From: an uncultured Pelagibacteraceae bacterium | Lineage (GTDB): Bacteria > Pseudomonadota > Alphaproteobacteria > Pelagibacterales > Pelagibacteraceae | Assembly (NCBI GenBank): GCA_902539745.1 | Contig: CACBKA010000005.1 | Location: 10,957-74,956 of the forward strand | DNA length: 64,000 nucleotides | Reading direction: 5' to 3' | Shown: piece after piece, positions 49,507 to 64,000 of the stretch | How the letters are laid out: each line of letters starts with the position of its first letter | Position numbering within the stretch: position 1 is the first letter of the stretch | Notes under the pieces: model-generated | What the model saw: the letters and a program-made list of their open reading frames with translations, nothing else | The model's database searches: none | What the model was told of the DNA's origin: nothing | Program-made: the position numbers and the translations under genes

Positions 49507-50394
49507 TTAATTTAACTTAAGTAAAAAGTTTTGAATGTAATTTTTAAGCTCAATTTTACCAAAGTATTTATATACTTTATTTGAAAGACTTTTATTTGTA
49601 AGCGCAGAAGCATATCTTTCACCTTTGCGTTTAGGCAAATATCTAATTTTTGTGTTAAACATTTTTGCAACTTCTTTAATTGAATGTTCCTTTTTGTTAG
49701 CAATGCTATAATGCCTACATAATTTTCTTTTCCAGGCCATATAACAAACATCAACAGTATCAAATATATGTGTAAACCTCCTTGTTTGTGTACCAGGTTT
49801 TACAACAGGAAGAGATTTTCTTTTTTTATAATGATTCTCGAAGATGCCGATAACAGTGGCCATCTCTCCTTCACAAATCTGATATGGACCATAAACATTG
49901 TAAAAGTAAATTACTTCATATTTAAAATTAAACCATTTTTTTAAATTTTCTAATAATTCTAAATTTTTTGCTTTTGTGAATGCATAAGGGGATAAGTTTT
50001 TGTCATTACCTTTATTACCTAAAGAAGCTGAAGTAGCAGAGTAAATAAGTTTTATTTTATTTTTTAAACAAAAATTAAAGACAGCATTGGTACCTACCGA
50101 ATTTGAATTAATACATTGATTCATTTTCTTAAAACTTTGATATATTCTTGCAAATTCACCAAAATGAAACACAGCAATTATTTCTCTCGGATTTTTTATT
50201 ATTTCAGCGATATTCTTAGTGTTACCTCTATAGTATTTTACTCTATTATTTCTTATGTGATTATTTTTTGTGCCTGATGAATAATCATCAATACTAATAA
50301 TTTTAAATTTTGTTTTTTTCAAAAGAAGGTTTATTAAATTAGTCCCGACAAATCCAGCACCGCCTGTTACTAAAATATTCTTAATTTTTGGCAT
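49507..50394 (-). CDS. NAD-dependent sugar-nucleotide epimerase/dehydratase (extended SDR; UXS/GalE-like)
   Basis: VTGGAGFVGTNL and YAFTK (YxxxK). 295 aa. Confidence 0.75.
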   Translation of the reverse strand: MPKIKNILVTGGAGFVGTNLINLLLKKTKFKIISIDDYSSGTKNNHIRNNRVKYYRGNTKNIAEIIKNPREIIAVFHFGEFARIYQSFKKMNQCINSNSVGTNAVFNFCLKNKIKLIYSATSASLGNKGNDKNLSPYAFTKAKNLELLENLKKWFNFKYEVIYFYNVYGPYQICEGEMATVIGIFENHYKKRKSLPVVKPGTQTRRFTHIFDTVDVCYMAWKRKLCRHYSIANKKEHSIKEVAKMFNTKIRYLPKRKGERYASALTNKSLSNKVYKYFGKIELKNYIQNFLLKLN

Positions 50395-50497
50395 TCAAGA
50401 TTTATATTTTAAAAATTGATTAAATCAACAATTGATTTTAACAAGTAATTCTTTTACTAATTAAATATATTAGATCATTTCTTTTTAAAATTTATAT

Positions 50498-53073: not shown

Positions 53074-53080
53074 TCTTAAA

Positions 53081-54016
53081 TTATTTTTTATAGTCTTTAA
53101 TATCTTTTATAACGTATCTTGTTCTACCTTTTGTTTGTTCAAAAATTCTTGCTAAGTAAATTCCCATTATTCCAATAGTTGATAATAGAGCTCCTGAAAA
53201 AAAAGATATTACAATTAAAATTCCGGTTGTACCGGGTACAGCAATTCCTGATACTTTTGCATAAAAAGCATAAATGATTAATAATATTGAAAAAAGAAAA
53301 GCAAAAAATCCCAACAATACGCCCAGGTAAAGTGGTTTTAATGAATAACTAGTAACACCCCTTATAAATTGAGTTACTGGTCCTTCAGCAAACAATGAAA
53401 ATTTAGATTCTCCTGCCTCTCTTGCTTCTCTAACATAATCTACATAAGTTTGCTTAAAGCCAACCCAAACGGATAAGCCACGAATATATGGATTATATTC
53501 TTTTTGCTCTAAAATTTTATCTAAAGCTCTTTTAGATATCAATTTAAAGTCTCCTACATCTTTTTCTAAATTTATATCTGATAATTTGTGAATAATCGTG
53601 TAAGCAATATTTGTAAAAAATAATTTAAATTTTGGCTCTCCTAACCTTTTCGTTCTTTTCGTGTGAACAATATCAAAACCTTTTTCATGTTGTTTTACTA
53701 ATTCGGTAATTAGTTCAGGTGGGTCTTGAAGATCTGAGTCCATGTAGATTATACAATCACCCGAGCAATTTTCAAAACCAGCTAAAACACATGGGTTAGT
53801 TCCAAATCTTCTAGACATGTTAATAATTTTTATTGGAAATTGTTTCTGTAAATCTAATAATATATTTTCAGAATTATCAGTTGAATCATCATTCACAAAT
53901 ATCAACTCATAATCCCAATTTTGAGTTTTTTTAACTGATTTGTGAACTCTATCAATAAGACTTTTTAAATTTTTCTCTTCGTTTCTAAATGAAAAAACAA
54001 AAGAAATTAATTTCAT
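53081..54016 (-). CDS. GT2 polyprenyl-phosphate glycosyltransferase (GtrB/ArnC/DPM1-like)
   Basis: FVNDDSTDNS and YMDSDLQDPPE motifs plus two C-terminal TM helices. 311 aa. Confidence 0.8.
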   Translation of the reverse strand: MKLISFVFSFRNEEKNLKSLIDRVHKSVKKTQNWDYELIFVNDDSTDNSENILLDLQKQFPIKIINMSRRFGTNPCVLAGFENCSGDCIIYMDSDLQDPPELITELVKQHEKGFDIVHTKRTKRLGEPKFKLFFTNIAYTIIHKLSDINLEKDVGDFKLISKRALDKILEQKEYNPYIRGLSVWVGFKQTYVDYVREAREAGESKFSLFAEGPVTQFIRGVTSYSLKPLYLGVLLGFFAFLFSILLIIYAFYAKVSGIAVPGTTGILIVISFFSGALLSTIGIMGIYLARIFEQTKGRTRYVIKDIKDYKK

Positions 54017-54084: not shown

Positions 54085-55272
54085 ATGCACTCTTTAGATT
54101 TAGTAGTTTTAGCTGGAGGTAAAGGTTCTAGAATTAAATACCTTCTAAAAAAGAAAGCTAAACCAATGGCTATTTTTAACAAAAAACCATTCATAGAATA
54201 TATTATACAGAATTATAGTAAATATCGTTTTAAAAATATCTTTCTACTAACTGGTTACAAATCTAAGGAAATAATAAATAAATTTCATAAGAAGTACTAC
54301 AATTTCACGTTAATAAATTGTCTTAAAGAAAAAAAGCTTATGGGTACAGGTGGTGCTCTTAATATTTTAAAGAAAAAAAAATTAAACGATTTTATTTTAA
54401 TTAATGGGGATACATTTCTTAATGTTGATTTGAGTAAATTAATTAAATCGTGCAGTAGAAATAGTTTTGGATCCCTTTGTTTGGTAAAAAGTAAATCATA
54501 TAAATCAAATAGGAAATTAATAACTATGGGTTTAAAGCAAGGAAGAATTGTTTTTAAAAATTCAGGTGGCTTCATGAATGGAGGTGTATATTTCTTTAAA
54601 AAAAAAATTTTGAAACTCATTAAAAATAAAAACCTCTCTTTAGAAAATGAGATTTTACCGAATTTAATAAATAAGAAAAAAATTTCAGGAATTGTTGCAA
54701 GCAGTTTCTTTTTAGATATCGGTACACCTATTAATTTTAAGAGAGCAAAAAAACTTTTGATTAAAAATTGTTCAAAACCTGCTGCGTTCTTAGATAGAGA
54801 TGGTGTAATAAATTATGATACCGGTTACGTTCATAAAATTAGAGATTTTAAATTTAGACCCGGAGTTATTGAAGGATTAAAATTATTAATAAAAAGGAAT
54901 TACTTTATTTTCATTGTTACAAATCAAGCAGGAATTGGTAAAGATATCTTTTCAAAAAGTGAGTTTTATAGACTGCATAATCAAATAAAAGAAAAACTTC
55001 AAAATAAAAATATATTTTTTGATGATGTAAATTACTGTCCATATCATCCAAAGGCAAAATTAAAAAAATATAGAAAAAAAACCGAACTAAGAAAACCAGG
55101 AAATTTAATGATACGTCAAATTAAAAAAAAGTGGCATATAAAAGACAGTGGTAGTTTTATGATTGGGGATAAAATTTCCGACAAAATTTGCGCTAAAAAA
55201 AGTAAGTTGTATTTTGAATTTGCAGAAAGAAATTTTCTTAATCAAATTAAAAGAATTACCAAACGAAGCTAG
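54085..55272 (+). CDS. Fusion of sugar-1-phosphate nucleotidyltransferase (HddC/RmlA-like) and D,D-heptose 1,7-bisphosphate phosphatase (GmhB, HAD)
   Basis: N-terminal part: VVLAGGKGSRI and LMGTGGAL. C-terminal part: FLDRDGVIN, TNQAGIGK, YCPYHP, RKPGNLM, GDKISD (GmhB signature set). 395 aa. Confidence 0.8.
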   Translation: MHSLDLVVLAGGKGSRIKYLLKKKAKPMAIFNKKPFIEYIIQNYSKYRFKNIFLLTGYKSKEIINKFHKKYYNFTLINCLKEKKLMGTGGALNILKKKKLNDFILINGDTFLNVDLSKLIKSCSRNSFGSLCLVKSKSYKSNRKLITMGLKQGRIVFKNSGGFMNGGVYFFKKKILKLIKNKNLSLENEILPNLINKKKISGIVASSFFLDIGTPINFKRAKKLLIKNCSKPAAFLDRDGVINYDTGYVHKIRDFKFRPGVIEGLKLLIKRNYFIFIVTNQAGIGKDIFSKSEFYRLHNQIKEKLQNKNIFFDDVNYCPYHPKAKLKKYRKKTELRKPGNLMIRQIKKKWHIKDSGSFMIGDKISDKICAKKSKLYFEFAERNFLNQIKRITKRS

Positions 55273-56204
55273 TAATTATTTATAATTTTTTTATTATCCG
55301 TACTAAATAAATCAATTAATTCTTCAATGCCTTGTTCCAAAGATGCTTTTGCTTTAAAGCCTTTTTTTTCAATTTTTTTATTACTTACAAAATAATCTCT
55401 TTTGTCTGGATCTTTTCTGTTTGTAATAATTTTAATTTTAAGTTTATTCATTTTTTTCTTTATTTTTTTTGCTAACATAAGTTTACTTATATTTGCAGAT
55501 GAAAGTCCCAAATTATAAATATTTGATTTTAATTTATTAAAATTTTTTATCGCGTAAATTATTCCTAAAACTACATCCTTAATATGTATAAAATTTCTTC
55601 TAAAATGAGGTTCGAAAATTGTTAGTTTTTTTGTTTTTACTGATTTATAAACAAAGTTATTTACTAATAAATCTGTTCTCATTCTATAACTGTATCCAAA
55701 AACTGTTGCTAATCTGAAGCAAATAAAATTTTTAGATTTTTTTACCTCTTCCTCTGCATCGCATTTTGTTCTACCGTAAAGTGATATTGGGTTTAAAGGA
55801 CTGTTTTCATCACAAAATTTATTTTTTTCTCCAACTCCATATCCAGAATTGGTAGTTAAAAATATTATTTTATTTTTTTTTGAGCTCAAAGATACAAGAT
55901 TTTTAATTGAATGGTGATTTACTGATATTGCATCTTTCTTATATTTATCACACAAAGGAGCACCGACTAAAGCAGCTAATGGTATTATAAATTCATTTTT
56001 TTTAAGTAAAGATTTTAATAATTTTTTATCTCGGACATCTTTTTTTATTAATTTAAAATTTTTAAAGTAATAAAGATGATTTAGTGATCCTCTATCATAT
56101 TTCATCAAATCTAAAACAGTAACTTTATGGCCTAAATTAACAAGGGCTGTGGATAGCATTGATCCAACATATCCTCCCCCACCAGTTATTAAAATTTTAC
56201 TCAT
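55269..56204 (-). CDS. NAD-dependent sugar-nucleotide epimerase/reductase (extended SDR)
   Basis: ITGGGGYVGS and YGRTK (YxxxK). 311 aa. Last gene of the operon. Confidence 0.75.
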   Translation of the reverse strand: MSKILITGGGGYVGSMLSTALVNLGHKVTVLDLMKYDRGSLNHLYYFKNFKLIKKDVRDKKLLKSLLKKNEFIIPLAALVGAPLCDKYKKDAISVNHHSIKNLVSLSSKKNKIIFLTTNSGYGVGEKNKFCDENSPLNPISLYGRTKCDAEEEVKKSKNFICFRLATVFGYSYRMRTDLLVNNFVYKSVKTKKLTIFEPHFRRNFIHIKDVVLGIIYAIKNFNKLKSNIYNLGLSSANISKLMLAKKIKKKMNKLKIKIITNRKDPDKRDYFVSNKKIEKKGFKAKASLEQGIEELIDLFSTDNKKIINNY

Positions 56205-56205
56205 T

Positions 56206-56694
56206 TTACAAATATTTTGAAGTTCTATCCCTTTTACTTAGAATTGGTTTTCTTATTGGCCATTTAATTTTAAATTTTGGGTCATTCCATCTGTAACTTT
56301 TTTGTTTATTTGAGTCTACATATTTTCCTTTATAAGACCATTTGTAATGAAAAACACATTTATTAGATAAACATAAATAGGCATTGGCAAAATGTGGTGG
56401 TATTAATATTAAAGTTGGTTTTTCATGTTTTAGGAACCAGCTTTTATGTTTTAAATAATTTTTTGATTTTTTCTCCATATTTACAACAACAAAAAAAACT
56501 TTTCCATAAGTGCATGTTACCAATTTCCAAGACTTAAAATCACAATGCAAACCTCGTAAAACATTTTTGTTTGAAATGGAAAACTTATCATGATTAAATT
56601 TAAGTTTCCGTAAAATACCTTTTTTCCACGTTGTCCAATAAAAACCTCTCTTGTCTCTAAAAGTAGAATTTTTTATAACTTTAAGTTTAATCAT
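56206..56694 (-). CDS. RmlC-like sugar-nucleotide 3,5-epimerase (cupin)
   Basis: FRDKRGFYWTTW and VLRGLHCD motifs. I place the start at ATG 56694, giving a 4-nt ATGA overlap with the upstream gene (the track uses 56721). Confidence 0.7.
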   Translation of the reverse strand: MIKLKVIKNSTFRDKRGFYWTTWKKGILRKLKFNHDKFSISNKNVLRGLHCDFKSWKLVTCTYGKVFFVVVNMEKKSKNYLKHKSWFLKHEKPTLILIPPHFANAYLCLSNKCVFHYKWSYKGKYVDSNKQKSYRWNDPKFKIKWPIRKPILSKRDRTSKYL

Positions 56695-57872
56695 AATTTT
56701 ATTGCATTTAAAATCGAGCAAATTTTTTTTATTCTAGATGACTTTAAACTTGGATAATTCCCAATATAATAGCCAAAGAAATGAACATGATCAACTTCTG
56801 GAAACTTTTTTAGATTAATTTTCTTCAAGTAAGTTTTTAAATACGGTTGTCTAAGCTGATTGCCACCTCCAGCATTTCCTCTTCTAAATTCAATGTTATA
56901 TCTTTTTAAGGTCAACTCAAAACGATCTCTAAACTTAAAACTTTTGTTTTTAAAAACAACTGGAAATGCGTAATTTGAACTACCATCAACTTCATAATCA
57001 ACCCTATATTTAGATGGGTCTAATAAATTTAAGAAAAGTTTTAAATTTTTTGTTCTTGTCCTATTATTTTTATCGAGTCTTTTAAGCTGGTTTATACCAA
57101 TCACAGCTCCAATTTCATTATTTCTAAAATTAAAAGTTGGATGTAAAAAAATAAATTGGGGGGATAATTTTGGATATTTTTTTATCATTTGTTTTTCAAA
57201 TTTCAGATTTTTTGCTTCTCTTGCCATGCCGTGAGACCTAAAAATTCTTGCTAATTCATAAATTTTTTTATTATTTGTGCAGATCATCCCGCCTTCAATA
57301 GTTGACATATGATGTGCATAATAAAAAGAAAAATTGGATATCAAACCAAATGTTCCTAATTTTTTGTTTTTATATTTAGCTCCATGTGACTCACACACAT
57401 CTTCTACAAGAATTATCTTTTTTCTTTTAATTTTTTTTAAAAGTTTTTCTGACAAACTATTAAATCCTTGTACGTGTGTTACAAAAACAGCAAGTGTATT
57501 TTTGTTTATTTTGCTCAAAACTTGATCTTGATTCATAGAAAGTGTTCTTGGATCAATATCGACAAATACAGGTTTAAAACCTGCCATTATTACAGAATTT
57601 ATATCTGAAACCCAAGTTAGTGTAGGAACAATAATCTCTTTTTTTTTAAGAGATAAGCTTTTTAATATTAACATACTTAATAAGTTAGCTGAAGATCCAG
57701 AATTAACAAAAACACTAAATTTTACACCAAGCCATTTGGACCATTTTTTTTCAAACTCAATAACATTCTTTGATTGTGTAAGAATTAAATTCTTATTTTT
57801 AATTAATTTTCTAACAGAATCCATATCGGATTTAATAAAATTATTGTGCATTAGTGGATGATTAATCTTCAT
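56691..57872 (-). CDS. DegT/DnrJ/EryC1-family PLP enzyme of the ColD/E1 3-dehydratase type
   Basis: SGSSANLL, and FSFYYAHHMSTIEGG where His occupies the usual Schiff-base Lys position. Only three Cys in total, so no E1-type Fe-S motif. 393 aa. Confidence 0.75.
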   Translation of the reverse strand: MKINHPLMHNNFIKSDMDSVRKLIKNKNLILTQSKNVIEFEKKWSKWLGVKFSVFVNSGSSANLLSMLILKSLSLKKKEIIVPTLTWVSDINSVIMAGFKPVFVDIDPRTLSMNQDQVLSKINKNTLAVFVTHVQGFNSLSEKLLKKIKRKKIILVEDVCESHGAKYKNKKLGTFGLISNFSFYYAHHMSTIEGGMICTNNKKIYELARIFRSHGMAREAKNLKFEKQMIKKYPKLSPQFIFLHPTFNFRNNEIGAVIGINQLKRLDKNNRTRTKNLKLFLNLLDPSKYRVDYEVDGSSNYAFPVVFKNKSFKFRDRFELTLKRYNIEFRRGNAGGGNQLRQPYLKTYLKKINLKKFPEVDHVHFFGYYIGNYPSLKSSRIKKICSILNAIKL

Positions 57873-58864
57873 TTTTTATCCTTTTTTAATTGATCAAAAA
57901 TTATTTCACTTCCTGCTGAAGTGAATTTAAACGGAATATTAATTAGTTTATAATTTTTTTTAAAAAATTTTTTTCTTTGATCTTGTCTCATGTACATAAG
58001 TAAAAAACCACCACCGCCTGCACCTAACAATTTACCTCCTAAAGCTCCAAATCTAATTGCATCATCATAAATATCATTTATTTTTGAATTTGTAATTAAA
58101 CTACTAAGAGCCTTTTTTTCCATCCAAGCATCATTTAAAAGTCTTCCAAAATCATCAATATTACCATATTTTAAAATACGTTCACCTTCTTTAACGTAAT
58201 TTAATATTTTACTAATATGTTCTTTCTTAATCGTTGTAAGTTTACTTACATATTGATTTGCTATTTTATGAGCAGTTCTATTAATGCCTGTGTAAATTAA
58301 AACAAGATTTTCATTTAATTTTTTTATATTTTTTTTTGAAGAAACTCTTTTAACATTAATAGAATTATTTTTATTAAATAGAATCTTATTAAAACCACCA
58401 TAAGAAGCTGAGGTCTGATCTTGTGAGCCCACCACTTCTCTCATTATATTTTGTTCAAAATTAATACTATTTTTTGCTAACTCAGCTCTAGTTAATTTAA
58501 TATTTTTAATTTTATATAAAGCCTGCATCAGTCCAACAGTGAAAGATGAGCTAGAACCCATTCCGCTTCTTGCAGGTAAATCACCATAATAATGGATTTC
58601 TAATCCTTCTTTAATATTTAGATGTTTTAGTAGATATCTTACAGCTTTGTGATTTATTTCATTAATTTTTTTTACATTCTCAATTTTTCTCCATACTATT
58701 CTATATTTTTGTTTAAAATAACCTGGTGAGAAACGACAAGTAATATAAATATGCTTATCAATTGTAGAAGATAATACAGCACCTCCATTTTTTTTATACC
58801 ATGAGGGATAATCACTACCGCCTCCAAAAAATGATATTCGATACGGTGTTTTTGTAATAATCAT
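57869..58864 (-). CDS. GHMP kinase of the heptose 7-phosphate kinase (HddA) type
   Basis: N-terminus TKTPYRISFFGGGSDYPSWY and GHMP loop PARSGMGSSSSF. 331 aa. Confidence 0.75.
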   Translation of the reverse strand: MIITKTPYRISFFGGGSDYPSWYKKNGGAVLSSTIDKHIYITCRFSPGYFKQKYRIVWRKIENVKKINEINHKAVRYLLKHLNIKEGLEIHYYGDLPARSGMGSSSSFTVGLMQALYKIKNIKLTRAELAKNSINFEQNIMREVVGSQDQTSASYGGFNKILFNKNNSINVKRVSSKKNIKKLNENLVLIYTGINRTAHKIANQYVSKLTTIKKEHISKILNYVKEGERILKYGNIDDFGRLLNDAWMEKKALSSLITNSKINDIYDDAIRFGALGGKLLGAGGGGFLLMYMRQDQRKKFFKKNYKLINIPFKFTSAGSEIIFDQLKKDKK

Positions 58865-58867
58865 ATT

Positions 58868-59404
58868 TTACTTTTCGCTATAATAATCTCCATACTCAAC
58901 TAGAATTGTACTTTTCCCATCTTTCCTCTCAATTGCTTTTTTGTATGATGTAAATATATCTGATGGTTCCTCAAGTCTTATGATTTCTACTGTGCTTAAA
59001 ACTTTTTGAAATGCTTCCGTAAAATCTCCAATGTGTTGGTGTTGAGGATGTAAGGGCCTTTGTGAACCGATTGATGTTCTTATAATTACTTTGGTTTTAA
59101 ATTTGCCTTGTGACATTATACTAAATTTATCTAAATGACTAACTAACTGATTTGTAGCAAGTAAAAGAAAATTCCATCTTGGAAATATACTTATAGGAAT
59201 ATGTCCGTTTAAAGCTAATCCATTGCTTATTCCTAATTGCATTTCTTCTGCGACAGGTAATTCATAGAGTTTACTTTTTGGTATACTTTTTAAAGTGTTT
59301 GTCATTGCAGTGCCTGGGTATGCAACTGCTTGTCCAAGAAATATAGTTCTTGGATCTTTACTCAGATAAATCATTGATTTAGTTAATTCCTCGGCGTATT
59401 TCAT
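58868..59404 (-). CDS. Minimal E1-beta/transketolase Pyr-domain protein
   Basis: 178 aa. ELPVAEEMQLGISNGLALNG matches the E1-beta Pyr-domain Glu context. The C-terminal domain found in E1-beta is absent. Confidence 0.55.
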   Translation of the reverse strand: MKYAEELTKSMIYLSKDPRTIFLGQAVAYPGTAMTNTLKSIPKSKLYELPVAEEMQLGISNGLALNGHIPISIFPRWNFLLLATNQLVSHLDKFSIMSQGKFKTKVIIRTSIGSQRPLHPQHQHIGDFTEAFQKVLSTVEIIRLEEPSDIFTSYKKAIERKDGKSTILVEYGDYYSEK

Positions 59405-59407
59405 AAA

Positions 59408-60010
59408 TTAAAATTGTATCCTTTTCCCTGCACCAGCATGTGGCCACTTAGACTTATAGCTGTAAAAAGTGACAAATTTATCATTAGAACCCTCAAAACT
59501 TAAATTTTTTTGCTGCCATGTTTTTCTAGTGTCTGTACAAACAGATAATGAATTATCCTCTATAACAAAATGAATTGGTAAATCAAAATTTCTACTGTAT
59601 TTAATACACTCATGGGCTATACCTGTTTCAGATGTCATCTCTCCCATAAAACAATAAACCATTGCGCTTTTTTCTTTTCTAAGCTTCAAAGACATTGCTG
59701 TACCTACTGCTATAGGAATAGAGCCTCCAACTAATGCTGATGAGTATATTTTGTACTCAGGAAAACACAAAGATATGGATCTGCCTGATAAAATTTCATT
59801 TTTAACTTCTTCTTTTGGAACACCTTTGAGAAGACATTGATAATGTGATCTCCAACTACAAAAAACCCAATCTTGCTTGTTAATTTTTTTAAAAATTTCT
59901 ATTATTTTATCTTCATTACCTTGATAAAGATGAACTGGAGCTCTTATTTTACCTTGATTAAATAAAGATGCAATTTCCTCCTCAAAGTTTATTAAGTCCT
60001 TTTTATTCAT
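59408..60010 (-). CDS. Minimal E1-alpha-like ThDP (PP-domain) protein
   Basis: 200 aa. FEEEIASLF..VHLYQGNE, and a ThDP motif variant GEMTSETG..(x)..VIEDNSLSV. Shares the C-terminal W-x-H-[AS]-G-A-G motif with the 279-aa paralogue. Confidence 0.55.
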   Translation of the reverse strand: MNKKDLINFEEEIASLFNQGKIRAPVHLYQGNEDKIIEIFKKINKQDWVFCSWRSHYQCLLKGVPKEEVKNEILSGRSISLCFPEYKIYSSALVGGSIPIAVGTAMSLKLRKEKSAMVYCFMGEMTSETGIAHECIKYSRNFDLPIHFVIEDNSLSVCTDTRKTWQQKNLSFEGSNDKFVTFYSYKSKWPHAGAGKRIQF

Positions 60011-60011
60011 T

Positions 60012-60929
60012 TTATACTCTTTTTTTTATTTTTATTTGTTTAATTTTATTTATTATTTCTAAAGCTGAGGGCGGAAAATTGCTAGTTTCAAGTGTATATC
60101 CCGCAGACTTATCTTTTAATCCTAAAACATAAACTTTTTTATTGGTCTGCTCATTTATTTTATGAGCTAAAGTTCTAATTATACCATCAACATAATCATT
60201 ATCAGTCATAAGAACTCCATATTTAGAGCTTTTAATCATGCTTATCCATTTTTTTTTCAAGACAAAGGGTTTTAATTCATATAAATGAATTATCCCAACC
60301 TTATAGCCATTGTTATTTAAATAATTTTTTGCTTTTTCTGCCTCGAAACGAGTTACTGATATTGGCATTAAAATTATATCAAGATTCTTTTTTATAGAAT
60401 TTTTGAACTCTATTTTATTTTCATAACTTTTTCTATGTTCTGAGACATAAAAAACATCGTCTGACTTCATAAATTTTTTATAAGTTTTAGTGTATTCATT
60501 TTTAGTCATGGGAGAATAAATTTTGATCCCAGGCATTTTGTAAAAGATTGATATATGGCTTGATGTAGAAACTGGACCTAAGCCACCTTCACTTGAAAGA
60601 CCTCTAATAAACATTGGTGCGGGCTTGTTCCAAATTTCTTTAGACTTACATGCGTAATTAACAATAAAAATACAATTTAACCAGTTATATCCTTGATATC
60701 TTATTATATAGAACGGTCTCCTCCCAACTAATGCCGCACCAGTAACCATTCCGCCGTTAGCAACGTCGGCCATTGGTAGCTCTATCACGCCATCTTTCTC
60801 ATAAAGTTTTGGTAAGGTTCCGGCTACCCAACCAACACCTGTTAGGTTTTGTCCAAAAACCTGACCTTTAAATTTTTTTAAGTGTTTAAAGGTTATTTGT
60901 TTTATTACTTCTCTAAGCGTTGTTTCCAT
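60012..60929 (-). CDS. E1-beta-like ThDP enzyme subunit (Pyr plus C-terminal domains)
   Basis: 305 aa. IELPMADVANGGMVTGAALVG and PGIKIYSPMT pattern. Confidence 0.7.
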   Translation of the reverse strand: METTLREVIKQITFKHLKKFKGQVFGQNLTGVGWVAGTLPKLYEKDGVIELPMADVANGGMVTGAALVGRRPFYIIRYQGYNWLNCIFIVNYACKSKEIWNKPAPMFIRGLSSEGGLGPVSTSSHISIFYKMPGIKIYSPMTKNEYTKTYKKFMKSDDVFYVSEHRKSYENKIEFKNSIKKNLDIILMPISVTRFEAEKAKNYLNNNGYKVGIIHLYELKPFVLKKKWISMIKSSKYGVLMTDNDYVDGIIRTLAHKINEQTNKKVYVLGLKDKSAGYTLETSNFPPSALEIINKIKQIKIKKRV

Positions 60930-61744
60930 AAATTTTCAATCTTTTTTTTTATATTTCTATGAATTTTTTCTGCTTTTTTTCCTAAAAATTTTTTTTCTAA
61001 TGTTAGTCTATCTCCTTTTACTTCTTCATCTACACCTGCACCCGAATGCCAGAAAAGTCTCTTAGTATTTACATTTATAAAAATTGGTTTTTTAAACAAG
61101 TTTTTTTTTAGTACTGAAAAAATATTTTTGGGTTGGTCATCAATATCGTAAGATTCTAATTTAAACGCTTTTGCAACATCCTTAGCTTTCCAATCTCTTC
61201 TGTCCTTCTTTTTAGTTAACACGGCATAATTATTATCCTCTACTACAAAAAGTATAGGTAATTCCTTTTTGGCTGCCCAACTTAATGAGGCTAAAACATA
61301 GTCTTCCTCGACAGATGCATCACCTAAGAAGACGATAGTAGGTTTTGCAGATGAAAAACATGCTCCAACACCCATACATGCATTGCTTCCCATTAATCCC
61401 TCATGACCAAACATGTTAATTTTATTTGAATTTATTGATAATGATCCGCCCATACCTCGTGTACATCCAGTTTTTTTTCCCAAAAGTTCGTCAATTAGTT
61501 CTACAATATTTCCTCCAAAAGAAAGATATATCGAGTGTCCTCTATGCTGCCCAAAGATAAGAGGTTTTTGTTTTTTATCTTTTACTATCTGAGCTATTGA
61601 TGATGGAACATATTCTTGTCCGGCTGATAGATAAACTGGAAAATTGATAATTTTTTCATTAACTCTTTTAAAAACCTCATTTTCAAAATTTCTGCACAAA
61701 GAAGCCTTTTCAAATGTTTTTAAACGATAATTTTTGTATGACAA
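60905..61744 (-). CDS. E1-alpha-like ThDP enzyme subunit
   Basis: 279 aa. RNFENEVF, SAGQE, GMGGSLS, and the ThDP motif GDASVEEDYVLASLSWAAKKELPILFVVEDNNYAV. Confidence 0.7.
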   Translation of the reverse strand: MSYKNYRLKTFEKASLCRNFENEVFKRVNEKIINFPVYLSAGQEYVPSSIAQIVKDKKQKPLIFGQHRGHSIYLSFGGNIVELIDELLGKKTGCTRGMGGSLSINSNKINMFGHEGLMGSNACMGVGACFSSAKPTIVFLGDASVEEDYVLASLSWAAKKELPILFVVEDNNYAVLTKKKDRRDWKAKDVAKAFKLESYDIDDQPKNIFSVLKKNLFKKPIFINVNTKRLFWHSGAGVDEEVKGDRLTLEKKFLGKKAEKIHRNIKKKIENLWKQRLEK

Positions 61745-61745
61745 T

Positions 61746-63266
61746 TTAGTCTCCCAGTAGTTTTCTTTTTAGTTTAATCTTAGTTGTGCTTTTAATATTA
61801 TCTACTGCGTTTTGACCAAATTTTTCTTTTATTAAATTTAAATATTTCTCATTAGTATGGTATTTCATCCAAGCTTCATCTCTAAATTTAAGTATTTGAC
61901 TAGCAGAAAGTTTCGTAGTTGACAAATTTTGTGTATCGTATGAATGTTGACTATATCCTGAATAAGTCGATGGAAGTTCAATTCCATTTTTTCGAGCCTC
62001 TAAGAAAAGAGGACTACCAGGATATGCCATCGCAGAATAAAAGTTTACCATCTCTGAATTTGTTTCTTCAGCAAAGTCATATGTAAATTTTAAACTTTTC
62101 TCTGTATCCTCTGGCAAGCCAAAAATATAATTGGCAGCGACATTTATTCCAGAGTCTCTAATTCCATTTATAACATCTATGATTTTAACTTCTTTATATG
62201 AGTCTTTGTGAACCTCTTTTCTTAAAACGGTATCTGGATTTTCTATTCCAAGACCTAGCCAATTAACTCCCGCTTTTTTTAGTTTTTCTAAATATTGTGG
62301 CTTGCAAGTATCAATTCTTGAGTAAGCCCAAATATTAAAACCATAATTTCTCTCAATTAATAAATCACATATCTTCATAAAATGGTTTGGATTAAGTACA
62401 AAAAGTTCATCTGCGATTTTTACATTTTTAACTCCTTGCTTTGCAATATAATCGAACTGTTTAATTATAAATTCTGGTGACCACCATCTAAAAATATTCG
62501 AGTTTTGAGATGAAATGTTTTCATCATTGTTAGTTCTATTAATTATATTTATCATACAAAATGAGCATTTGTATGGACACCCCAGACTTGTATATAAAGC
62601 TGCGAAAGGTTGTTTGTCAGAATTATTTGACCAAGAATGCCATCCTGCAGTCCTATATTCGGATAACTTGGGTAACAAATCCCAGGCTATTCCTGGTAAA
62701 TCATTTTCTAAAAGTTTTTTTGGTACTACTATTTCTGGTTCGTTTAAAATAATTTGGTTTTCATTATTTCTAAAACCTATTCCTTTAATTTTTTTTAGAT
62801 AAGACTCTTCATTTAAATTATCAGCACTCAATAAATTTGATATTGAGTATACTCCTTCATTTAATGCAACGAAATCAATACTAGATTCATTTAGTAAAGT
62901 TTCTCTAGGTAAGGCAGCAACATGACCTCCAACAAATAAAGTTTTAATTTCATTATTTAATTTTTTTAATTCTATGGAGGTTTTTGTAGCTCCCTCCATA
63001 TTTTGAGATGAAGCTGAGGGTTGTTGCCCATAGACTACAAAACAAGCAATTTTTGGTTTAAGATTATTTATTTCTTTAGCACTTTTTTCATAATCGAGTT
63101 TACTAACTTCGCAATCCAAAATTGCTGTTTTAAAATTATTAGACCTACAGTGGTTTGCTAACATTCCTGCCCATATAGGCGGCTCATATGCAGAATGGTC
63201 TTTGCTAAGTTCTTGATAAATTTTTTTAGATGCGTTTGGGTGAATAAATAAAATATCTAGGCTCAT
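61746..63266 (-). CDS. B12-binding-domain radical SAM enzyme (class B, methyltransferase-like)
   Basis: N-terminal Rossmann-like cobalamin-domain pattern (ILFIHPN...FVGGHVAALP) followed by the CxxxCxxC motif in LGCPYKCSFCM. 506 aa. Confidence 0.8.
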   Translation of the reverse strand: MSLDILFIHPNASKKIYQELSKDHSAYEPPIWAGMLANHCRSNNFKTAILDCEVSKLDYEKSAKEINNLKPKIACFVVYGQQPSASSQNMEGATKTSIELKKLNNEIKTLFVGGHVAALPRETLLNESSIDFVALNEGVYSISNLLSADNLNEESYLKKIKGIGFRNNENQIILNEPEIVVPKKLLENDLPGIAWDLLPKLSEYRTAGWHSWSNNSDKQPFAALYTSLGCPYKCSFCMINIINRTNNDENISSQNSNIFRWWSPEFIIKQFDYIAKQGVKNVKIADELFVLNPNHFMKICDLLIERNYGFNIWAYSRIDTCKPQYLEKLKKAGVNWLGLGIENPDTVLRKEVHKDSYKEVKIIDVINGIRDSGINVAANYIFGLPEDTEKSLKFTYDFAEETNSEMVNFYSAMAYPGSPLFLEARKNGIELPSTYSGYSQHSYDTQNLSTTKLSASQILKFRDEAWMKYHTNEKYLNLIKEKFGQNAVDNIKSTTKIKLKRKLLGD

Positions 63267-63271
63267 GAAAA

Positions 63272-64000
63272 TTAATAGTCTTTAAAAGCATCGTATATCT
63301 TTTGTCTAGGATCCGTAATAACCTCAATAAAAAGAGGTTTGTTATTTTTCATTATTTTTTTCAAGTCGTTATCTATTTCTTTGAAGTTATGTATCAAATA
63401 ATGGTCTAAATCAAATGCTTTTGCAATATTTTTGAAATTAAGTGTGCCTGTTCCGGTATCTTCTGGATTATCTAGTCTTCTTCCTTTGAAAAATGTATCG
63501 GCCCAATTATGCATAGATACGTAACCACCATTGTTAATAACAAATAATTTAATGTTAAACTTGTTGTGAGAAATTGTTTTAAGTTCCTGGATATTTAATT
63601 CTAGTGATCCGTCACCTGTCACTGCTAAAACTCGAGATCTTGGAGCTGCAACTGCTGCTCCAATCGCCAGAGGAACAGATAGACCCATAGCTGCATTAGA
63701 TACTGAAGTGATTTCCTTTGTTCCTTTTTCAAAAGTCCAAACTTGTCCACCGATATAATAATTTGAACCAGCATCTGTTACTAAAATATCATTTTTTTTT
63801 GCAATTTTTCCAAGTTTTTGCATAAAAAAATATAAATCAATTGGATTTTTTTGTTTTAATTTTGAGGGAATAATTGGTTTATTCTTTTTATTATTTAAAC
63901 AAAAATTTATCCAACTATTGTAGCTGGGAAATTTAGAAACTTTTGTCATTTTATTTAAAATCGGTAAAAAGTTTTTCAAGTCATAATTAAATCTATAATT
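63272..64000 (-). CDS. Acetolactate-synthase-family (YerE/IlvB-like) ThDP enzyme, C-terminal part; gene continues past the window end
   Basis: ThDP motif VTGDGSLELNIQELKTISHNKFNIKLFVINNGGY. The frame stays open from 63979 to 64000 (NYRFNYD upstream of the track's TTG start). Confidence 0.8.
   Translation of the reverse strand, partial: NYRFNYDLKNFLPILNKMTKVSKFPSYNSWINFCLNNKKNKPIIPSKLKQKNPIDLYFFMQKLGKIAKKNDILVTDAGSNYYIGGQVWTFEKGTKEITSVSNAAMGLSVPLAIGAAVAAPRSRVLAVTGDGSLELNIQELKTISHNKFNIKLFVINNGGYVSMHNWADTFFKGRRLDNPEDTGTGTLNFKNIAKAFDLDHYLIHNFKEIDNDLKKIMKNNKPLFIEVITDPRQKIYDAFKDY

What the first reader, a model, noticed from the sequence alone, without database searches (positions are those of the whole stretch)
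55269..64000. Ten-gene operon with three ThDP C-C enzymes, a B12-radical SAM enzyme and heptose/3-deoxygenation genes: candidate pathway for an undescribed branched-chain deoxy-heptose-type sugar
Seen in sequence:
- Ten minus-strand genes run from beyond the window end to 55269 with gaps of 0-5 nt or overlaps. These include ATGA overlaps at 57869-57872 and 56691-56694 and a 25-nt overlap at 60905-60929.
- Order: ALS/YerE-like ThDP enzyme, B12-binding radical SAM, E1-alpha-like, E1-beta-like, mini E1-alpha-like, mini E1-beta-like, HddA-type GHMP kinase, His-for-Lys PLP dehydratase (ColD/E1 type), RmlC-like epimerase, SDR.
- A convergent NTP-transferase-GmhB fusion lies directly next to the operon.

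Established knowledge:
- YerE, an ALS-like ThDP flavoenzyme, adds a C2 branch to a 3,6-dideoxy-4-keto NDP-hexose in yersiniose A biosynthesis.
- E1 alpha/beta-like pairs (AviB1/AviB2 in avilamycin and the equivalent pair in aldgamycin) are implicated in two-carbon branch attachment on deoxysugars.
- Class B radical SAM enzymes (GenK, GenD1) C-methylate sugars.
- ColD/E1 enzymes remove the C3 hydroxyl of 4-keto-6-deoxy NDP-sugars.
- HddA/GmhB/HddC make GDP-D-glycero-alpha-D-manno-heptose.
- Campylobacter capsules contain 3,6-dideoxy-heptoses.

Inference: this combination would make an activated heptose (or hexose) that is 3-deoxygenated, epimerised, carbon-branched (possibly twice) and C-methylated. 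I know of no characterised pathway that unites all these catalysts in one operon.
Basis: partly seen in the sequence, partly recalled or inferred. Interest (0 to 1): 0.85.

Follow-up and report, generated by a model that had tools for sequence, protein, structure and literature searches.

The report
Widespread heptose-branching sugar operon in SAR11
This SAR11 surface-sugar operon appears to turn an activated seven-carbon sugar into an unknown carbon-branched sugar using three thiamine enzymes and a B12 radical enzyme, and its core gene set recurs, uncharacterised, in many bacterial phyla.

Summary
Ten tightly packed minus-strand genes lie at 55269-64000, with the reported domains and overlaps.

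Three details need correcting:
- The last gene is about 55% identical to Cj1427, the GDP-heptose C4-dehydrogenase. It is not a generic reductase.
- The epimerase is of the Campylobacter GDP-4-keto-heptose type.
- The PLP enzyme is ColD-type, with an invariant His. No GDP-heptose 4,6-dehydratase and no C4-reductase is encoded.

The expected intermediate is therefore GDP-D-glycero-3-deoxy-4-keto-heptose, with its 4-ketone left free for ThDP-dependent branching.

Close relatives show the operon continuing upstream into a full 566-aa YerE-like gene, a glycosyltransferase and an aminotransferase. There is no E2/E3 and no PEP mutase.

New result: the B12-radical SAM gene sits in conserved synteny across many phyla. 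In 42 genome loci it lies next to a heptose kinase (40), a two-subunit transketolase-superfamily ThDP enzyme (39), a Cj1427-like SDR (38) and a DegT-family gene (40, mostly His-type). The window operon is unusual in carrying a long E1 pair, a mini E1 pair and a YerE-like enzyme together.

The product and the radical SAM chemistry (methylation or ring closure) remain inferred. I found no described pathway of this kind.

The parts
63272..64000 (-). C-terminal 242 codons of a YerE-like (ALS-family) ThDP carboligase, cut by the window end. It is 566 aa in close relatives.
   Evidence: TPP_enzyme_C, E 1.9e-29. The full-length relative (L006:2774-4474) has TPP_N/M/C. Its best PDB match is JanthE 8rph, a characterised YerE-like enzyme, at E 1.4e-78, against 3.4e-64 for AHAS. 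A GDG...NN motif is visible in the translation.
61746..63266 (-). B12-binding-domain radical SAM enzyme, 506 aa. It is the signature gene of the conserved cassette.
   Evidence: PF02310 plus PF04055. The CxxxCxxC motif is invariant in 87 homologues. The best named family is HpnJ at 124 bits against a cut-off of 577.6, followed by BchE and PhpK. There is no close PDB relative. The family has 410 clusters (50% identity) at E<=1e-30.
60905..61744 (-). 'Long' E1-alpha-like ThDP (PP-domain) subunit, 279 aa.
   Evidence: E1_dh, E 4.7e-15. PDH E1-alpha, E 1e-13. The motif GDA-x27-EDNN is conserved in 16 homologues.
60012..60929 (-). 'Long' E1-beta-like subunit (Pyr plus C-terminal domain), 305 aa.
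   Evidence: Transket_pyr and a weak Transketolase_C. In a HMMER alignment to human PDH E1-beta, a conserved Asp ('MADVAG') sits where the cofactor-activating Glu ('PISEMGF') lies. This holds in all homologues.
59408..60010 (-). 'Mini' E1-alpha-like ThDP subunit, 200 aa (PP domain only).
   Evidence: E1_dh, E 2.1e-18. Motif G(D/E)M-x27-DN. It is 57-70% identical to the mini subunits that fill the ThDP slot in Verrucomicrobia and Nitrospira cassettes. It is only 26% identical to the long alpha subunit.
58868..59404 (-). 'Mini' E1-beta-like subunit, 178 aa (Pyr domain only, no C-terminal E2-binding domain).
   Evidence: Transket_pyr, E 1.4e-11. The canonical Glu is kept ('PVAEEM') in 48 homologues.
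57869..58864 (-). HddA-type GHMP kinase (D-glycero-D-manno-heptose-7-phosphate kinase family).
   Evidence: GHMP_N and GHMP_C. HddA model, E 1.7e-39. Best PDB matches are WcbL/HddA (4usm, 3k85, 4n3o), E about 1e-34. It lies next to the radical SAM gene in 40 of 42 genome loci.
56691..57872 (-). ColD-type PLP/PMP-dependent C3-dehydratase, with His in place of the Schiff-base Lys.
   Evidence: Best PDB match is ColD/WbdK 2gms at E 5.6e-49, against 4e-32 for E1 (3bcx). 'YAHHMST' aligns to ColD 'YSHHIAT'. 'YYAHH' is invariant in 42 homologues. His is present in 62 of 80 DegT genes near the radical SAM gene.
56206..56721 (-). GDP-4-keto-heptose C3/C5 epimerase (Cj1430/MlghB/DdahB family). The likely start is the ATG at 56694.
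   Evidence: Best PDB matches are the C. jejuni GDP-D-glycero-4-keto-D-lyxo-heptose 3- and 3,5-epimerases (7ang, 8dcl, 7m14), E about 1e-41, against 2e-20 for the best dTDP-type RmlC. Relatives call a 162-aa product.
55269..56204 (-). [quoted passage not shown]
   Evidence: E 1.4e-87 and about 55% identity over the full length to PDB 6vo6/6vo8. A published Cj1427c primer at gene position 918 encodes RAFKMMKV, which matches 6vo6 residues 299-302 (RAFK) in register. The 'TTNSGYG' motif lacks the dehydratase Asp/Glu. It is present in 38 of 42 loci.
54085..55272 (+). Convergent HddC-like nucleotidyltransferase fused to a GmhB-like heptose-1,7-bisphosphate phosphatase.
   Evidence: NTP_transferase plus HAD/PNK3P. 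GmhB model, E 3e-37, and HddC model, E 5e-26. The same fusion is present in L006, L010, L011 and L012.
53081..54016 (-). PgfS/ArnC-like GT2 with C-terminal membrane helices (polyprenyl-phosphate glycosyltransferase type).
   Evidence: Glycos_transf_2. PgfS 235.6 bits and ArnC 136.7 bits. Hydrophobic segments at residues 233-288. It also adjoins the compact SAR11 cassette in L007-L010.
51526..53073 (+). 515-aa polytopic membrane protein with no family match. It is a candidate GT-C-like transferase for the lipid-linked sugar (inferred).
   Evidence: No Pfam or NCBIfam hit even at E 10. At least 7 hydrophobic segments lie in the first 360 aa, followed by a soluble tail. The AF2 single-sequence model has pLDDT 44.5 and is unusable. 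Homologues are present in L011 (73%) and L010 (32%).
49507..51529 (.). Island edge: an SDR of unknown role (49507-50394, minus strand) and RmlB dTDP-glucose 4,6-dehydratase (50498-51529, plus strand). This is a separate dTDP-6-deoxyhexose branch.
   Evidence: RmlB equivalog at 402 bits, above the cut-off of 365. PDB 8du1, E 1e-88. The SDR gives only generic hits. GC falls to 24-26% from 50 kb.

Best explanation
The ten genes are most of a co-directional run of at least 12 genes. It lies in a cell-surface glycan island of roughly 15-20 kb in a SAR11 (Pelagibacteraceae) genome.

**Shown by homology**
- The Cj1427-like SDR oxidises C4.
- The ColD-type His enzyme removes the 3-OH.
- The Cj1430-like epimerase inverts C3 and/or C5.
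- These steps give GDP-D-glycero-3-deoxy-4-keto-heptose.

**Inferred**
- No C4-reductase is encoded, so the 4-ketone is the electrophile for ThDP-bound acyl anions made from pyruvate or another 2-oxo acid. This creates a C4 tertiary alcohol with an acyl branch.
- One two-subunit transketolase-superfamily enzyme does this in the ancestral cassette. This lineage carries a long pair, a mini pair and a YerE-like enzyme, so more than one C-C bond, or more than one donor, is likely.
- The B12-binding radical SAM enzyme then acts on an unactivated carbon of the heptose or of the branch, either by C-methylation or by radical C-C ring closure.
- The finished GDP-sugar is passed by the PgfS/ArnC-like GT2 to a polyprenyl phosphate.
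- A membrane transferase, possibly the 515-aa protein, then moves it on the periplasmic side onto LPS or another envelope acceptor.
For: - Gene identities.
- The SDR is identified as Cj1427-like through 6vo6 plus a primer check.
- Cj1427 followed by a PLP C3-dehydratase has been shown in vitro to give GDP-D-glycero-3-deoxy-4-keto-heptose (PMC10680097).
- YerE-like enzymes and E1 alpha/beta pairs are established or proposed branching enzymes on 4-keto (or 3-keto) deoxysugars (PMC9306805; PMC12247030).
- No Cj1428-type reductase and no GDP-heptose 4,6-dehydratase is present in the operon.
- Synteny across phyla, within 9 kb of the radical SAM gene in 42 loci: kinase 40, DegT-family 40, two-subunit ThDP enzyme 39, Cj1427-like SDR 38, NTP-transferase 35. 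The DegT genes are mostly His-type.
- The ThDP slot is filled interchangeably by mini pairs, long pairs or split transketolases.
- Catalytic motifs are conserved.
- Upstream genes in L006 and L011 are a glycosyltransferase and an aminotransferase.
- A GT2 of ArnC/PgfS type is adjacent in several SAR11 versions.
- In Nitrospira the cassette sits beside a Wzm/Wzt O-antigen exporter.
Against: - No member of the cassette has been characterised, and no glycan structure is known for any carrier.
- GmhA is absent from the 64-kb window, and it lies within 9 kb of the radical SAM gene in only 6 of 42 loci.
- The long E1-beta has Asp instead of the cofactor-activating Glu, so that pair may be weak or may do something different.
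- The order of steps, and whether the ThDP and radical SAM enzymes act on the GDP-sugar or on a sugar phosphate, is not determined. The near-universal radical SAM/kinase adjacency could point to the sugar-phosphate option.
- The radical SAM enzyme matches no curated functional family, and cobalamin use is unproven.
- The island also encodes RmlB, so a dTDP-4-keto-6-deoxyhexose is an alternative acceptor for the YerE-like enzyme.
- The GT-C assignment of the 515-aa protein is unsupported.
Confidence: 0.55

Rival explanations
1. Same pathway up to the 4-C-acetyl-3-deoxy-heptose, but the B12-radical SAM enzyme is a cyclase, not a methylase. It abstracts H from C7 and closes a C7-C8 bond onto the branch carbonyl. 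The product is a caryose-type cyclopentane-fused nonose (4,8-cyclo-3,9-dideoxy-nonose skeleton).
For: - Caryose is a 3-deoxy C9 sugar whose C8-C9 unit is bonded to C4 and to C7. Its biosynthesis is stated to be unknown (PMC9092360).
- The conserved core (heptose activation, C4 oxidation, C3 dehydration, a C2-donating ThDP enzyme, a radical SAM enzyme) provides exactly the steps a retrosynthesis needs. It includes no C4-reductase, and the compact SAR11 cassette (L007) has no second SDR that could reduce the branch.
- The nearest named radical SAM families are HpnJ and BchE. HpnJ is genetically linked to sugar-to-cyclopentitol conversion. BchE's isocyclic-ring chemistry is from my own knowledge, supported here only by its annotated name as an oxidative cyclase.
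Against: - The HpnJ score is 124 bits against a cut-off of 577.6, so there is no membership.
- Most characterised B12-radical SAM enzymes are methyltransferases.
- No homologue from Trinickia (Burkholderia) caryophylli appeared among the best 120 hits to a Burkholderiales family member, and its genome could not be searched.
- Non-SAR11 cassettes usually carry a second SDR that could be a branch ketoreductase.
Confidence: 0.15
2. The ThDP and radical SAM enzymes do not branch the nucleotide sugar. Either they act earlier on a sugar phosphate (chain extension or methylation before the GHMP kinase), or they build a separate small acyloin-type substituent that is later attached to the heptose.
For: - The radical SAM and GHMP kinase genes are adjacent in almost every locus, including Azospirillum plasmids that have few other cassette genes.
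- Some versions use true split transketolases, whose usual substrates are sugar phosphates.
Against: - A Cj1427-like oxidase and a His-type dehydratase, with no C4-reductase, create a reactive 4-ketone that otherwise has no fate.
- No acyltransferase or ligase is conserved in the cassette.
- E1-type and YerE-type enzymes have precedent on NDP-keto-sugars.
Confidence: 0.15
3. The E1-like genes belong to an ordinary pyruvate/acetoin/2-oxoacid dehydrogenase, or the ThDP/radical SAM/nucleotidyltransferase set is a phosphonate pathway that merely sits next to sugar genes.
For: - E1_dh and Transket_pyr domains are present.
- One distant relative (L093) has a PEP-mutase fragment and a Ppd-like gene about 7 kb away.
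Against: - No E2, E3 or lipoyl gene lies within 10 kb in L006, L007, L010 or L011.
- The mini beta subunit lacks the E2-binding C-terminal domain.
- No PEP-mutase homologue is found in the window or in the other 92 loci.
- The pairs are conserved in synteny with heptose genes across phyla.
- Scores to PDH models are far below their cut-offs.
Confidence: 0.02

Closest known systems
Campylobacter jejuni capsular GDP-heptose modification pathways (HddA/GmhA/GmhB/HddC; Cj1427 C4-dehydrogenase; HS:5 PLP C3-dehydratase; Cj1430-type epimerases; Cj1428-type C4-reductases)
   Same: - The kinase, phosphatase and guanylyltransferase types are the same.
- The C4-dehydrogenase is about 55% identical to Cj1427.
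- The epimerase belongs to the same structural family.
- The C3-dehydratase is a ColD-type His enzyme.
- The predicted intermediate, GDP-D-glycero-3-deoxy-4-keto-heptose, was made in vitro with the Campylobacter enzymes (PMC10680097).
   Different: - There is no C4-reductase and no 4,6-dehydratase for the heptose.
- In their place, the operon carries five ThDP-enzyme genes and a B12-radical SAM gene.
- In C. jejuni the Cj1427-plus-C3-dehydratase combination is reported only as an artificial in-vitro route.
YerE/YerF yersiniose A pathway and YerE-like enzymes (ErwE, MMAR_2332, MygE, JanthE)
   Same: - The ThDP carboligase belongs to the same family. JanthE is its best solved relative.
- It is encoded with genes that make a 3-deoxy-4-keto nucleotide sugar in an envelope-glycan locus.
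   Different: - The acceptor would be a GDP-heptose that keeps its 6-OH, not CDP-3,6-dideoxy-4-keto-glucose.
- No YerF-like reductase is evident next to it.
- The YerE-like gene is an add-on limited to the SAR11 versions of the cassette (3 of 42 loci).
alpha-KADH2 sugar-branching E1 alpha/beta pairs of actinomycete antibiotics (aldgamycin, kibdelomycin KbDH-alpha/beta, paulomycin, avilamycin) and split transketolases (miharamycin, amipurimycin)
   Same: - These are two-subunit transketolase-superfamily ThDP enzymes without E2/E3 partners.
- They are encoded among deoxy-keto-sugar genes.
   Different: - Here they sit in Gram-negative and candidate-phylum envelope loci, not in secondary-metabolite clusters.
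- The mini pair (200 + 178 aa) lacks the C-terminal domain altogether.
- The long beta subunit has Asp for the catalytic Glu.
- Sequence relationship to the characterised pairs could not be tested.
Class B (B12-binding) radical SAM enzymes acting on sugars or forming carbocycles (GenK, Fom3; HpnJ, BchE, OxsB)
   Same: It has an N-terminal B12-binding domain plus a CxxxCxxC radical SAM core, and it is encoded in a sugar-modification operon.
   Different: It falls below every curated family cut-off (best is HpnJ, 124 against 577.6 bits). Its substrate and reaction are unknown. It forms its own large family (410 clusters at 50% identity with E<=1e-30).
Arn/Gtr/Pgf-type lipid-linked single-sugar decoration systems (ArnC/GtrB/PgfS plus a GT-C transferase)
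   Same: The adjacent GT2 matches PgfS and ArnC and has C-terminal membrane helices. A polytopic membrane protein is encoded next to it.
   Different: The membrane protein matches no GT-C family. No flippase gene was identified. The acceptor is unknown.

Membership tests
C. jejuni-type GDP-D-glycero-heptose modification pathway | HddA-type heptose-7-phosphate kinase | tested here: met
   HddA model, E 1.7e-39. PDB WcbL/HddA, E about 1e-34. The score is below the equivalog cut-off (136 against 600 bits).
C. jejuni-type GDP-D-glycero-heptose modification pathway | GmhA sedoheptulose-7-phosphate isomerase | tested here: not met
   No homologue is found in the 64-kb window. A SIS_2 gene is adjacent in relatives L005 and L010 and in the methanotroph locus L066.
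C. jejuni-type GDP-D-glycero-heptose modification pathway | GmhB phosphatase and HddC guanylyltransferase | tested here: met
   A fused 395-aa protein. GmhB model, E 3e-37, and HddC model, E 5e-26.
C. jejuni-type GDP-D-glycero-heptose modification pathway | Cj1427-type C4-dehydrogenase | tested here: met
   E 1.4e-87 and about 55% identity to 6vo6. The identity of 6vo6 with Cj1427 was checked against the published primer.
C. jejuni-type GDP-D-glycero-heptose modification pathway | PLP/PMP C3-dehydratase with His replacing the Schiff-base Lys | tested here: met
   ColD 2gms, E 5.6e-49, with the His aligned. The His is invariant in homologues.
C. jejuni-type GDP-D-glycero-heptose modification pathway | Terminal NADPH-dependent C4-reductase (Cj1428/MlghC/DdahC type) | tested here: not met
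   The only SDR in the operon is Cj1427-like. The other island SDRs are RmlB and a 295-aa protein with only generic hits.
YerE-like ThDP carboligases | Three-domain decarboxylase-family architecture with a GDG...NN ThDP motif | tested here: met
   Only the C-terminal domain lies in the window. TPP_N/M/C is present in the 566-aa orthologue of L006 and L011. The motif is visible in the translation.
YerE-like ThDP carboligases | Closer to characterised YerE-like enzymes than to acetohydroxyacid synthases | tested here: met
   JanthE 8rph scores 268 bits against 221 bits for the best AHAS. JanthE is described as YerE-like in PMC12188165.
YerE-like ThDP carboligases | Carboligation of a 2-oxo acid to an NDP-4-keto-deoxysugar | not testable with these tools
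   This needs an enzyme assay.
alpha-KADH2 sugar-branching E1 alpha/beta pairs | Separate PP-domain and Pyr-domain subunits with a ThDP/Mg motif and no E2/E3 partner | tested here: met
   Domains. Motifs. No E2/E3 gene in the flanks of L006, L007, L010 or L011.
alpha-KADH2 sugar-branching E1 alpha/beta pairs | Cofactor-activating Glu in the Pyr subunit | tested here: inconclusive
   The mini pair keeps the Glu. The long pair has a conserved Asp at that position.
alpha-KADH2 sugar-branching E1 alpha/beta pairs | Sequence clustering with characterised members (AlmDI/DII, KbDH) | not tested
   No sequences or structures of those proteins were available in the tools.
Class B (B12-binding) radical SAM enzymes | B12-binding domain plus a CxxxCxxC radical SAM core | tested here: met
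   PF02310 at 40.9 bits (cut-off 32.1) and PF04055 at 66.7 bits. The cysteine motif is invariant.
Class B (B12-binding) radical SAM enzymes | Membership of a functionally defined subfamily (HpnJ, BchE, PhpK, KedN5, HpnR and others) | tested here: not met
   The best score is HpnJ at 124.3 bits against a cut-off of 577.6. All others score lower.
ArnC/GtrB/PgfS plus GT-C lipid-linked decoration system | GT2 with C-terminal transmembrane helices that matches polyprenyl-phosphate glycosyltransferases | tested here: met
   PgfS 235.6 bits and ArnC 136.7 bits, both below their equivalog cut-offs. Hydrophobic C-terminal segments are present.
ArnC/GtrB/PgfS plus GT-C lipid-linked decoration system | GT-C fold transferase partner | tested here: inconclusive
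   The 515-aa polytopic protein has no family hit. The AF2 model has pLDDT 44.5.
2-oxoacid/acetoin dehydrogenase complex | Lipoyl E2 and E3 components encoded with E1 | tested here: not met
   None is present in the window island or in the 10-kb flanks of relatives.
Phosphonate biosynthesis | PEP mutase | tested here: not met
   tblastn with the L093 PEP-mutase fragment finds nothing in the window or in the other 92 loci.

The most novel reading that the evidence does not exclude
The cross-phylum core cassette consists of heptose activation, a Cj1427-like oxidase, a His-type C3-dehydratase, a minimal two-subunit ThDP enzyme and a B12-radical SAM enzyme. In this reading it is the unknown biosynthetic route to carbocyclic higher sugars of the caryose type. 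The ThDP enzyme puts an acetyl group on C4 of GDP-3-deoxy-4-keto-heptose. The radical SAM enzyme then closes a cyclopentane ring between C7 and the branch carbonyl. SAR11 would elaborate this skeleton further with its extra ThDP enzymes, so a major ocean bacterium would display a vitamin-B1- and B12-dependent carbocyclic sugar on its surface.
Probability: 0.13. Interest if true: 0.9.

Novelty: new variant of a known kind. Interest (0 to 1): 0.72.

Why it matters
**Surface glycans of SAR11.** SAR11 is among the most abundant bacteria in the ocean. From general knowledge, surface glycans of this kind affect phage adsorption and grazing, yet the ones encoded in its variable islands are chemically unknown.

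**Vitamin dependence.** This operon would need thiamine diphosphate for three enzymes and probably cobalamin for one. The organism is reported to be auxotrophic for B12 (PMC9296465) and for a thiamine precursor (PMC11452348). Vitamin supply could therefore influence envelope structure.

**A cassette no one has characterised.** The same radical SAM/kinase/Cj1427-like/His-dehydratase/ThDP core occurs in Omnitrophota, Verrucomicrobia, Nitrospira, methanotrophs, Burkholderiales, OM43 and others. It has thousands of homologues and none has been studied.

**New enzymology.** The cassette points to:
- a natural role for the Cj1427-plus-C3-dehydratase route, so far known only in vitro;
- minimal 200 + 178-aa ThDP enzymes;
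- a B12-radical SAM enzyme that may act on a nucleotide sugar.

**Tractability.** Cultivable carriers exist, which makes the question experimentally approachable.

Tried and rejected
1. **Erwiniose made by C7-methylation of a 3,6-dideoxy-heptose.** Dropped after reading PMC9306805. Erwiniose is explained there by ErwE adding 4-hydroxy-2-oxopentanoate to CDP-3,6-dideoxy-4-keto-glucose.
2. **Bradyrhizose (7+2+1 carbons).** The paper on the putative bradyrhizose cluster mentions no transketolase, thiamine or radical SAM genes. There is no supporting link.
3. **Ordinary PDH/acetoin dehydrogenase or a phosphonate pathway.** Rejected.
4. **3,6-dideoxy-heptose route through a GDP-heptose 4,6-dehydratase.** The only 4,6-dehydratase is an RmlB equivalog.
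5. **Exact-sequence contig look-ups** for the radical SAM and long E1-beta proteins found nothing. Extension of the locus came from near-identical relatives instead.
6. **Searching for the cassette in Trinickia caryophylli.** A protein search seeded with a Burkholderiales member returned no named caryophylli hit in the top 120. The question stays untested rather than negative.
7. **AF2 single-sequence model of the 515-aa membrane protein.** pLDDT was 44.5, so no fold search was run.
8. **Promoter and terminator scan of 53-64 kb.** Promoter-like sites were at the shuffle level (63 against 64.8). This is uninformative in DNA of 25-30% GC.
9. **Literature searches** for SAR11 or heptose together with radical SAM, cobalamin or transketolase found no description of this cassette.
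10. **Direct confirmation that PDB 6vo6 is Cj1427.** The structure papers are not held. It was checked indirectly through the primer sequence.

Full report
**1. Observation.** The ORF list gives ten minus-strand ORFs from 55269 to the window end, at exactly the reported coordinates. Spacings are 1-5 nt. There are four-base ATGA overlaps at 57869-57872 and 56691-56694 and a 25-nt overlap at 60905-60929. Pfam and NCBIfam confirm the domain content of every gene and of the convergent 395-aa nucleotidyltransferase/GmhB fusion. GC is 24-26% between 50 and 58 kb, against about 30% elsewhere.

The island starts near 49.5 kb, after housekeeping genes (phosphoribosyltransferase, nucleoside phosphorylase, eIF-2B-like isomerase).

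**2. What lies beyond the window.** Exact or near-exact copies occur on Tara Oceans contigs (L001, 97.9% nucleotide identity). They also occur in a Pelagibacteraceae single-cell genome, AG-426-L15 (L011). There the radical SAM protein is 98% identical in the scan, and the locus is 90.9% identical in nucleotides over window 51771-64000. In L011 and L006 the first gene is a complete 566-aa TPP_N/M/C protein. It is preceded on the same strand by a Glyco_trans_1_2 protein and a PseC-like DegT aminotransferase. Further upstream are a divergent GT2, a class-III aminotransferase and an FkbM-type methyltransferase.

There is no lipoyl E2, no E3 and no PEP mutase. The co-directional run is probably twelve genes long.

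**3. Refined gene identities.**
- The first gene's best solved relative is JanthE (8rph, E 1.4e-78), a characterised YerE-like carboligase. This is ahead of acetohydroxyacid synthases (E 3.4e-64).
- The PLP enzyme is ColD-type (2gms, E 5.6e-49). The catalytic His aligns, and RfbH/E1 scores much lower.
- The kinase groups with heptose-7-phosphate kinases.
- The 'RmlC-like' protein is closest to the C. jejuni GDP-D-glycero-4-keto-heptose 3- and 3,5-epimerases (E about 1e-41, against 2e-20 for the best dTDP-type RmlC).
- The terminal 'SDR' is about 55% identical over its whole length to PDB 6vo6/6vo8 (E 1.4e-87). I recalled these entries as Cj1427 and checked this indirectly. A published primer at position 918 of Cj1427c encodes RAFKMMKV, which matches 6vo6 residues 299-302 in register.

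The neighbouring 343-aa SDR is an RmlB equivalog (402 bits, above its cut-off). No GDP-heptose 4,6-dehydratase is encoded, and no Cj1428-type C4-reductase either.

**4. Consequence for the chemistry.** Three steps (C4 oxidation, PMP-dependent C3 dehydration, epimerisation) give GDP-D-glycero-3-deoxy-4-keto-heptose. The Raushel laboratory made this compound in vitro by combining Cj1427 with the HS:5 C3-dehydratase, describing the resulting 3-deoxy-heptoses as novel.

In C. jejuni a C4-reductase finishes the sugar. Here the ketone has no reductase. It does have three ThDP enzymes encoded upstream. YerE-like enzymes and E1 alpha/beta pairs are the two known enzyme classes that add acyl anions to such ketones (PMC9306805; PMC12247030). 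This is the main mechanistic argument for C4 branching. It is an inference.

**5. The cassette is widespread.**
- The radical SAM protein has more than 7,900 90%-identity homologue clusters at E<=1e-30. That search scored only 8,000 candidates, so the count is a floor.
- It has 410 clusters (50% identity) at E<=1e-30 in the representative library.
- A scan of one genome per species returned at least 598 loci. The best 80 are from Pelagibacteraceae, OM43/Methylopumilus and other Betaproteobacteria, Omnitrophota, MAGs labelled Planctomycetales, Verrucomicrobia, Nitrospira, Methylomicrobium/Methylotuvimicrobium (complete genomes), a Prochlorococcus single-cell genome, Stappia, Bdellovibrionales, Elusimicrobia and Spirochaetes.
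- Azospirillum plasmids and Piscinibacter defluvii also carry members.

A tblastn synteny matrix covers the 42 loci that have at least 6 kb on both sides of the radical SAM gene. The counts below are genes within 9 kb of it.

| Gene | Loci (of 42) |
|---|---|
| HddA-like kinase | 40 |
| DegT-family gene | 40 |
| Two-subunit transketolase-superfamily ThDP enzyme | 39 |
| Cj1427-like SDR | 38 |
| Nucleotidyltransferase | 35 |
| GmhA | 6 |
| RmlC-like epimerase | 4 |
| YerE-like gene | 3 |

The 39 ThDP enzymes break down as mini pair 23, long pair 6, split transketolase 4, distant E1 4, long plus mini 1, and mini plus transketolase 1.

Of 80 DegT-family genes near the radical SAM gene, 62 have His at the Schiff-base position. 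These include the divergent Omnitrophota type. In a methanotroph the order is radical SAM, kinase, SDR, split transketolase N and C, His-dehydratase, nucleotidyltransferase, GmhA, Cj1427-like SDR, NUDIX, GT. In Nitrospira the cassette abuts Wzm/Wzt O-antigen export genes.

The functional unit is therefore radical SAM + kinase + C4-oxidase + C3-dehydratase + one ThDP enzyme + nucleotidyltransferase. The second refutation condition (never co-occurring with sugar-nucleotide genes) is clearly not met.

**6. What is special in this window.**
- Compact SAR11 versions, inserted between recG/Sdh5 and SLT/PBP5/tmk, have YerE-like, radical SAM, long pair, kinase, dehydratase, epimerase, oxidase, GmhB and GT2.
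- The window lineage (with L006 and L011) additionally has the mini pair between the long beta subunit and the kinase. It was the only long-plus-mini case among the 42 loci.
- Its mini subunits are 57-70% identical to those of Verrucomicrobia and Nitrospira, whose radical SAM proteins are only 43-46% identical. The window radical SAM protein is instead closest to the long-pair cassettes (63-80% identical). The operon therefore looks like a long-pair cassette that acquired a mini pair.
- Long and mini alpha subunits are only 26% identical.
- Another low-GC contig (L093) also combines a mini pair, a YerE-like gene and a third transketolase-like pair. Stacking of ThDP enzymes therefore recurs.

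**7. Catalytic competence.** ThDP/Mg motifs are conserved in both alpha subunits. The radical SAM cysteines, the dehydratase His-His and the SDR YxxxK are conserved too. The mini beta subunit keeps the cofactor-activating Glu. The long beta family has a conserved Asp at that position, as aligned to human PDH E1-beta. This departure is unusual and unexplained.

**8. The radical SAM step.** The protein has a B12-binding domain and a radical SAM core. It reaches no curated family cut-off. The best scores are HpnJ 124 bits (cut-off 577.6), then BchE 92 and PhpK-type 83. AprD4 is the only notable PDB hit (E 3e-10).

Two options are left open.
- **C-methylation of an unactivated carbon.** This is the commonest chemistry of the class. 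From my own knowledge, GenK and Fom3 methylate hydroxymethyl-type carbons.
[quoted passage not shown] It is formally a 3-deoxy-heptose carrying a C2 unit on C4 whose carbonyl carbon is also bonded to C7. The conserved core supplies every step of such a route if the radical SAM enzyme closes the ring. HpnJ is genetically implicated in making a cyclopentitol from a sugar.

I could not test whether the caryose producer carries the cassette, so this stays a minority reading.

**9. Delivery.** The adjacent GT2 matches PgfS and ArnC and has C-terminal membrane segments. A homologous GT2 also follows the compact SAR11 cassettes. This suggests transfer of the sugar to a polyprenyl phosphate for periplasmic use.

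The neighbouring 515-aa polytopic protein has no family match, and its single-sequence model was unusable. Its role as the final transferase is only an inference from position and topology.

**10. Comparison and novelty.** The downstream half is a recognisable variant of the Campylobacter heptose pathways. The upstream half combines the two known classes of sugar-branching ThDP enzymes with a class B radical SAM enzyme.

Reviews place YerE-like enzymes in LPS sugars, and E1-type and transketolase-type enzymes in actinomycete secondary metabolites. The envelope-locus cassettes found here are not described in that literature, and neither are their minimal 200 + 178-aa pairs. Searches for SAR11 or heptose with radical SAM, cobalamin or transketolase found no description of the cassette either.

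I rate it a new variant of a known kind (nucleotide-sugar branching pathways). The enzyme combination is uncharacterised, and there is a modest chance that the product class is new.

**11. Verdict.**
- Confidence in the heptose to 3-deoxy-4-keto to ThDP branching to radical SAM modification model is about 0.55.
- Interest is 0.72.

Noticed in passing
window 60012-60929 and homologues in L004-L018, L057: The long E1-beta-like family has a conserved Asp ('MADVAG') at the position of the ThDP-activating Glu of PDH E1-beta ('PISEMGF'). The mini beta subunit keeps the Glu.
   Followed up: partly
window 50000-58000 versus 58000-64000: GC drops to 24-26% in the left part of the island (RmlB to the dehydratase). 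The ThDP/radical SAM part is about 30%, like the rest of the window. The island looks compositionally mosaic.
   Followed up: no
window 58868-60010 versus L060, L074, L086, L087 and others: The mini pair is 57-70% identical to the Verrucomicrobia and Nitrospira mini pairs. The radical SAM proteins of those loci are only 43-46% identical to the window's. This suggests the mini pair was acquired separately and inserted into a long-pair cassette.
   Followed up: partly
proteins P0241, P0243, P0253-P0255, P0263, P0266 and others: Many members of the radical SAM family are 650-940 aa long and match the query in two stretches. They carry an insertion or extra domain of about 140-380 aa between the B12 and radical SAM parts.
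   Followed up: no
one search hits (P0014, P0028, P0081, P0094 and others); L004, L005, L093: Proteins of 181-203 aa containing only TPP_enzyme_C, and 58-78% identical to the C-terminus of the YerE-like enzyme, are frequent. In L004, L005 and L093 the gene is in pieces. Some of these are probably frameshift artefacts of long-read assemblies, and others may be genuine split genes.
   Followed up: partly
L093:16276-18546: In one distant low-GC relative a cytidylyltransferase-like gene, a PEP-mutase fragment and a Ppd-like ThDP gene lie about 7 kb from the cassette. No PEP-mutase homologue exists in the window or in the other 92 loci.
   Followed up: yes
window 49507-51529: An RmlB equivalog and a 295-aa SDR at the island edge indicate a second, dTDP-6-deoxyhexose branch. 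No RmlA homologue turned up in the window search with the nucleotidyltransferase query. L010 has RmlA-like, RmlB-like and SDR genes together.
   Followed up: partly
window 51526-53073; L087:7316-8803: Large polytopic membrane proteins with no Pfam or NCBIfam match sit next to the PgfS/ArnC-like GT2 in the SAR11 cassette. A no-Pfam protein sits similarly next to a GT2 in the Nitrospira cassette. These may represent an undescribed transferase family.
   Followed up: partly
window 55269-55272: The Cj1427-like gene and the nucleotidyltransferase/GmhB gene converge and overlap by four bases, which leaves no room for terminators.
   Followed up: no
L034:4291-6655: In an Omnitrophota genome a carbamoyltransferase and an SxtJ-like protein lie directly upstream of the cassette. 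This hints at carbamoylation of the sugar in that lineage.
   Followed up: no
L092 (Azospirillum argentinense Az39 plasmid p5): The radical SAM/SDR/kinase genes lie beside a split transketolase and a second 'cobalamin-dependent protein', and the group is surrounded by IS elements.
   Followed up: no
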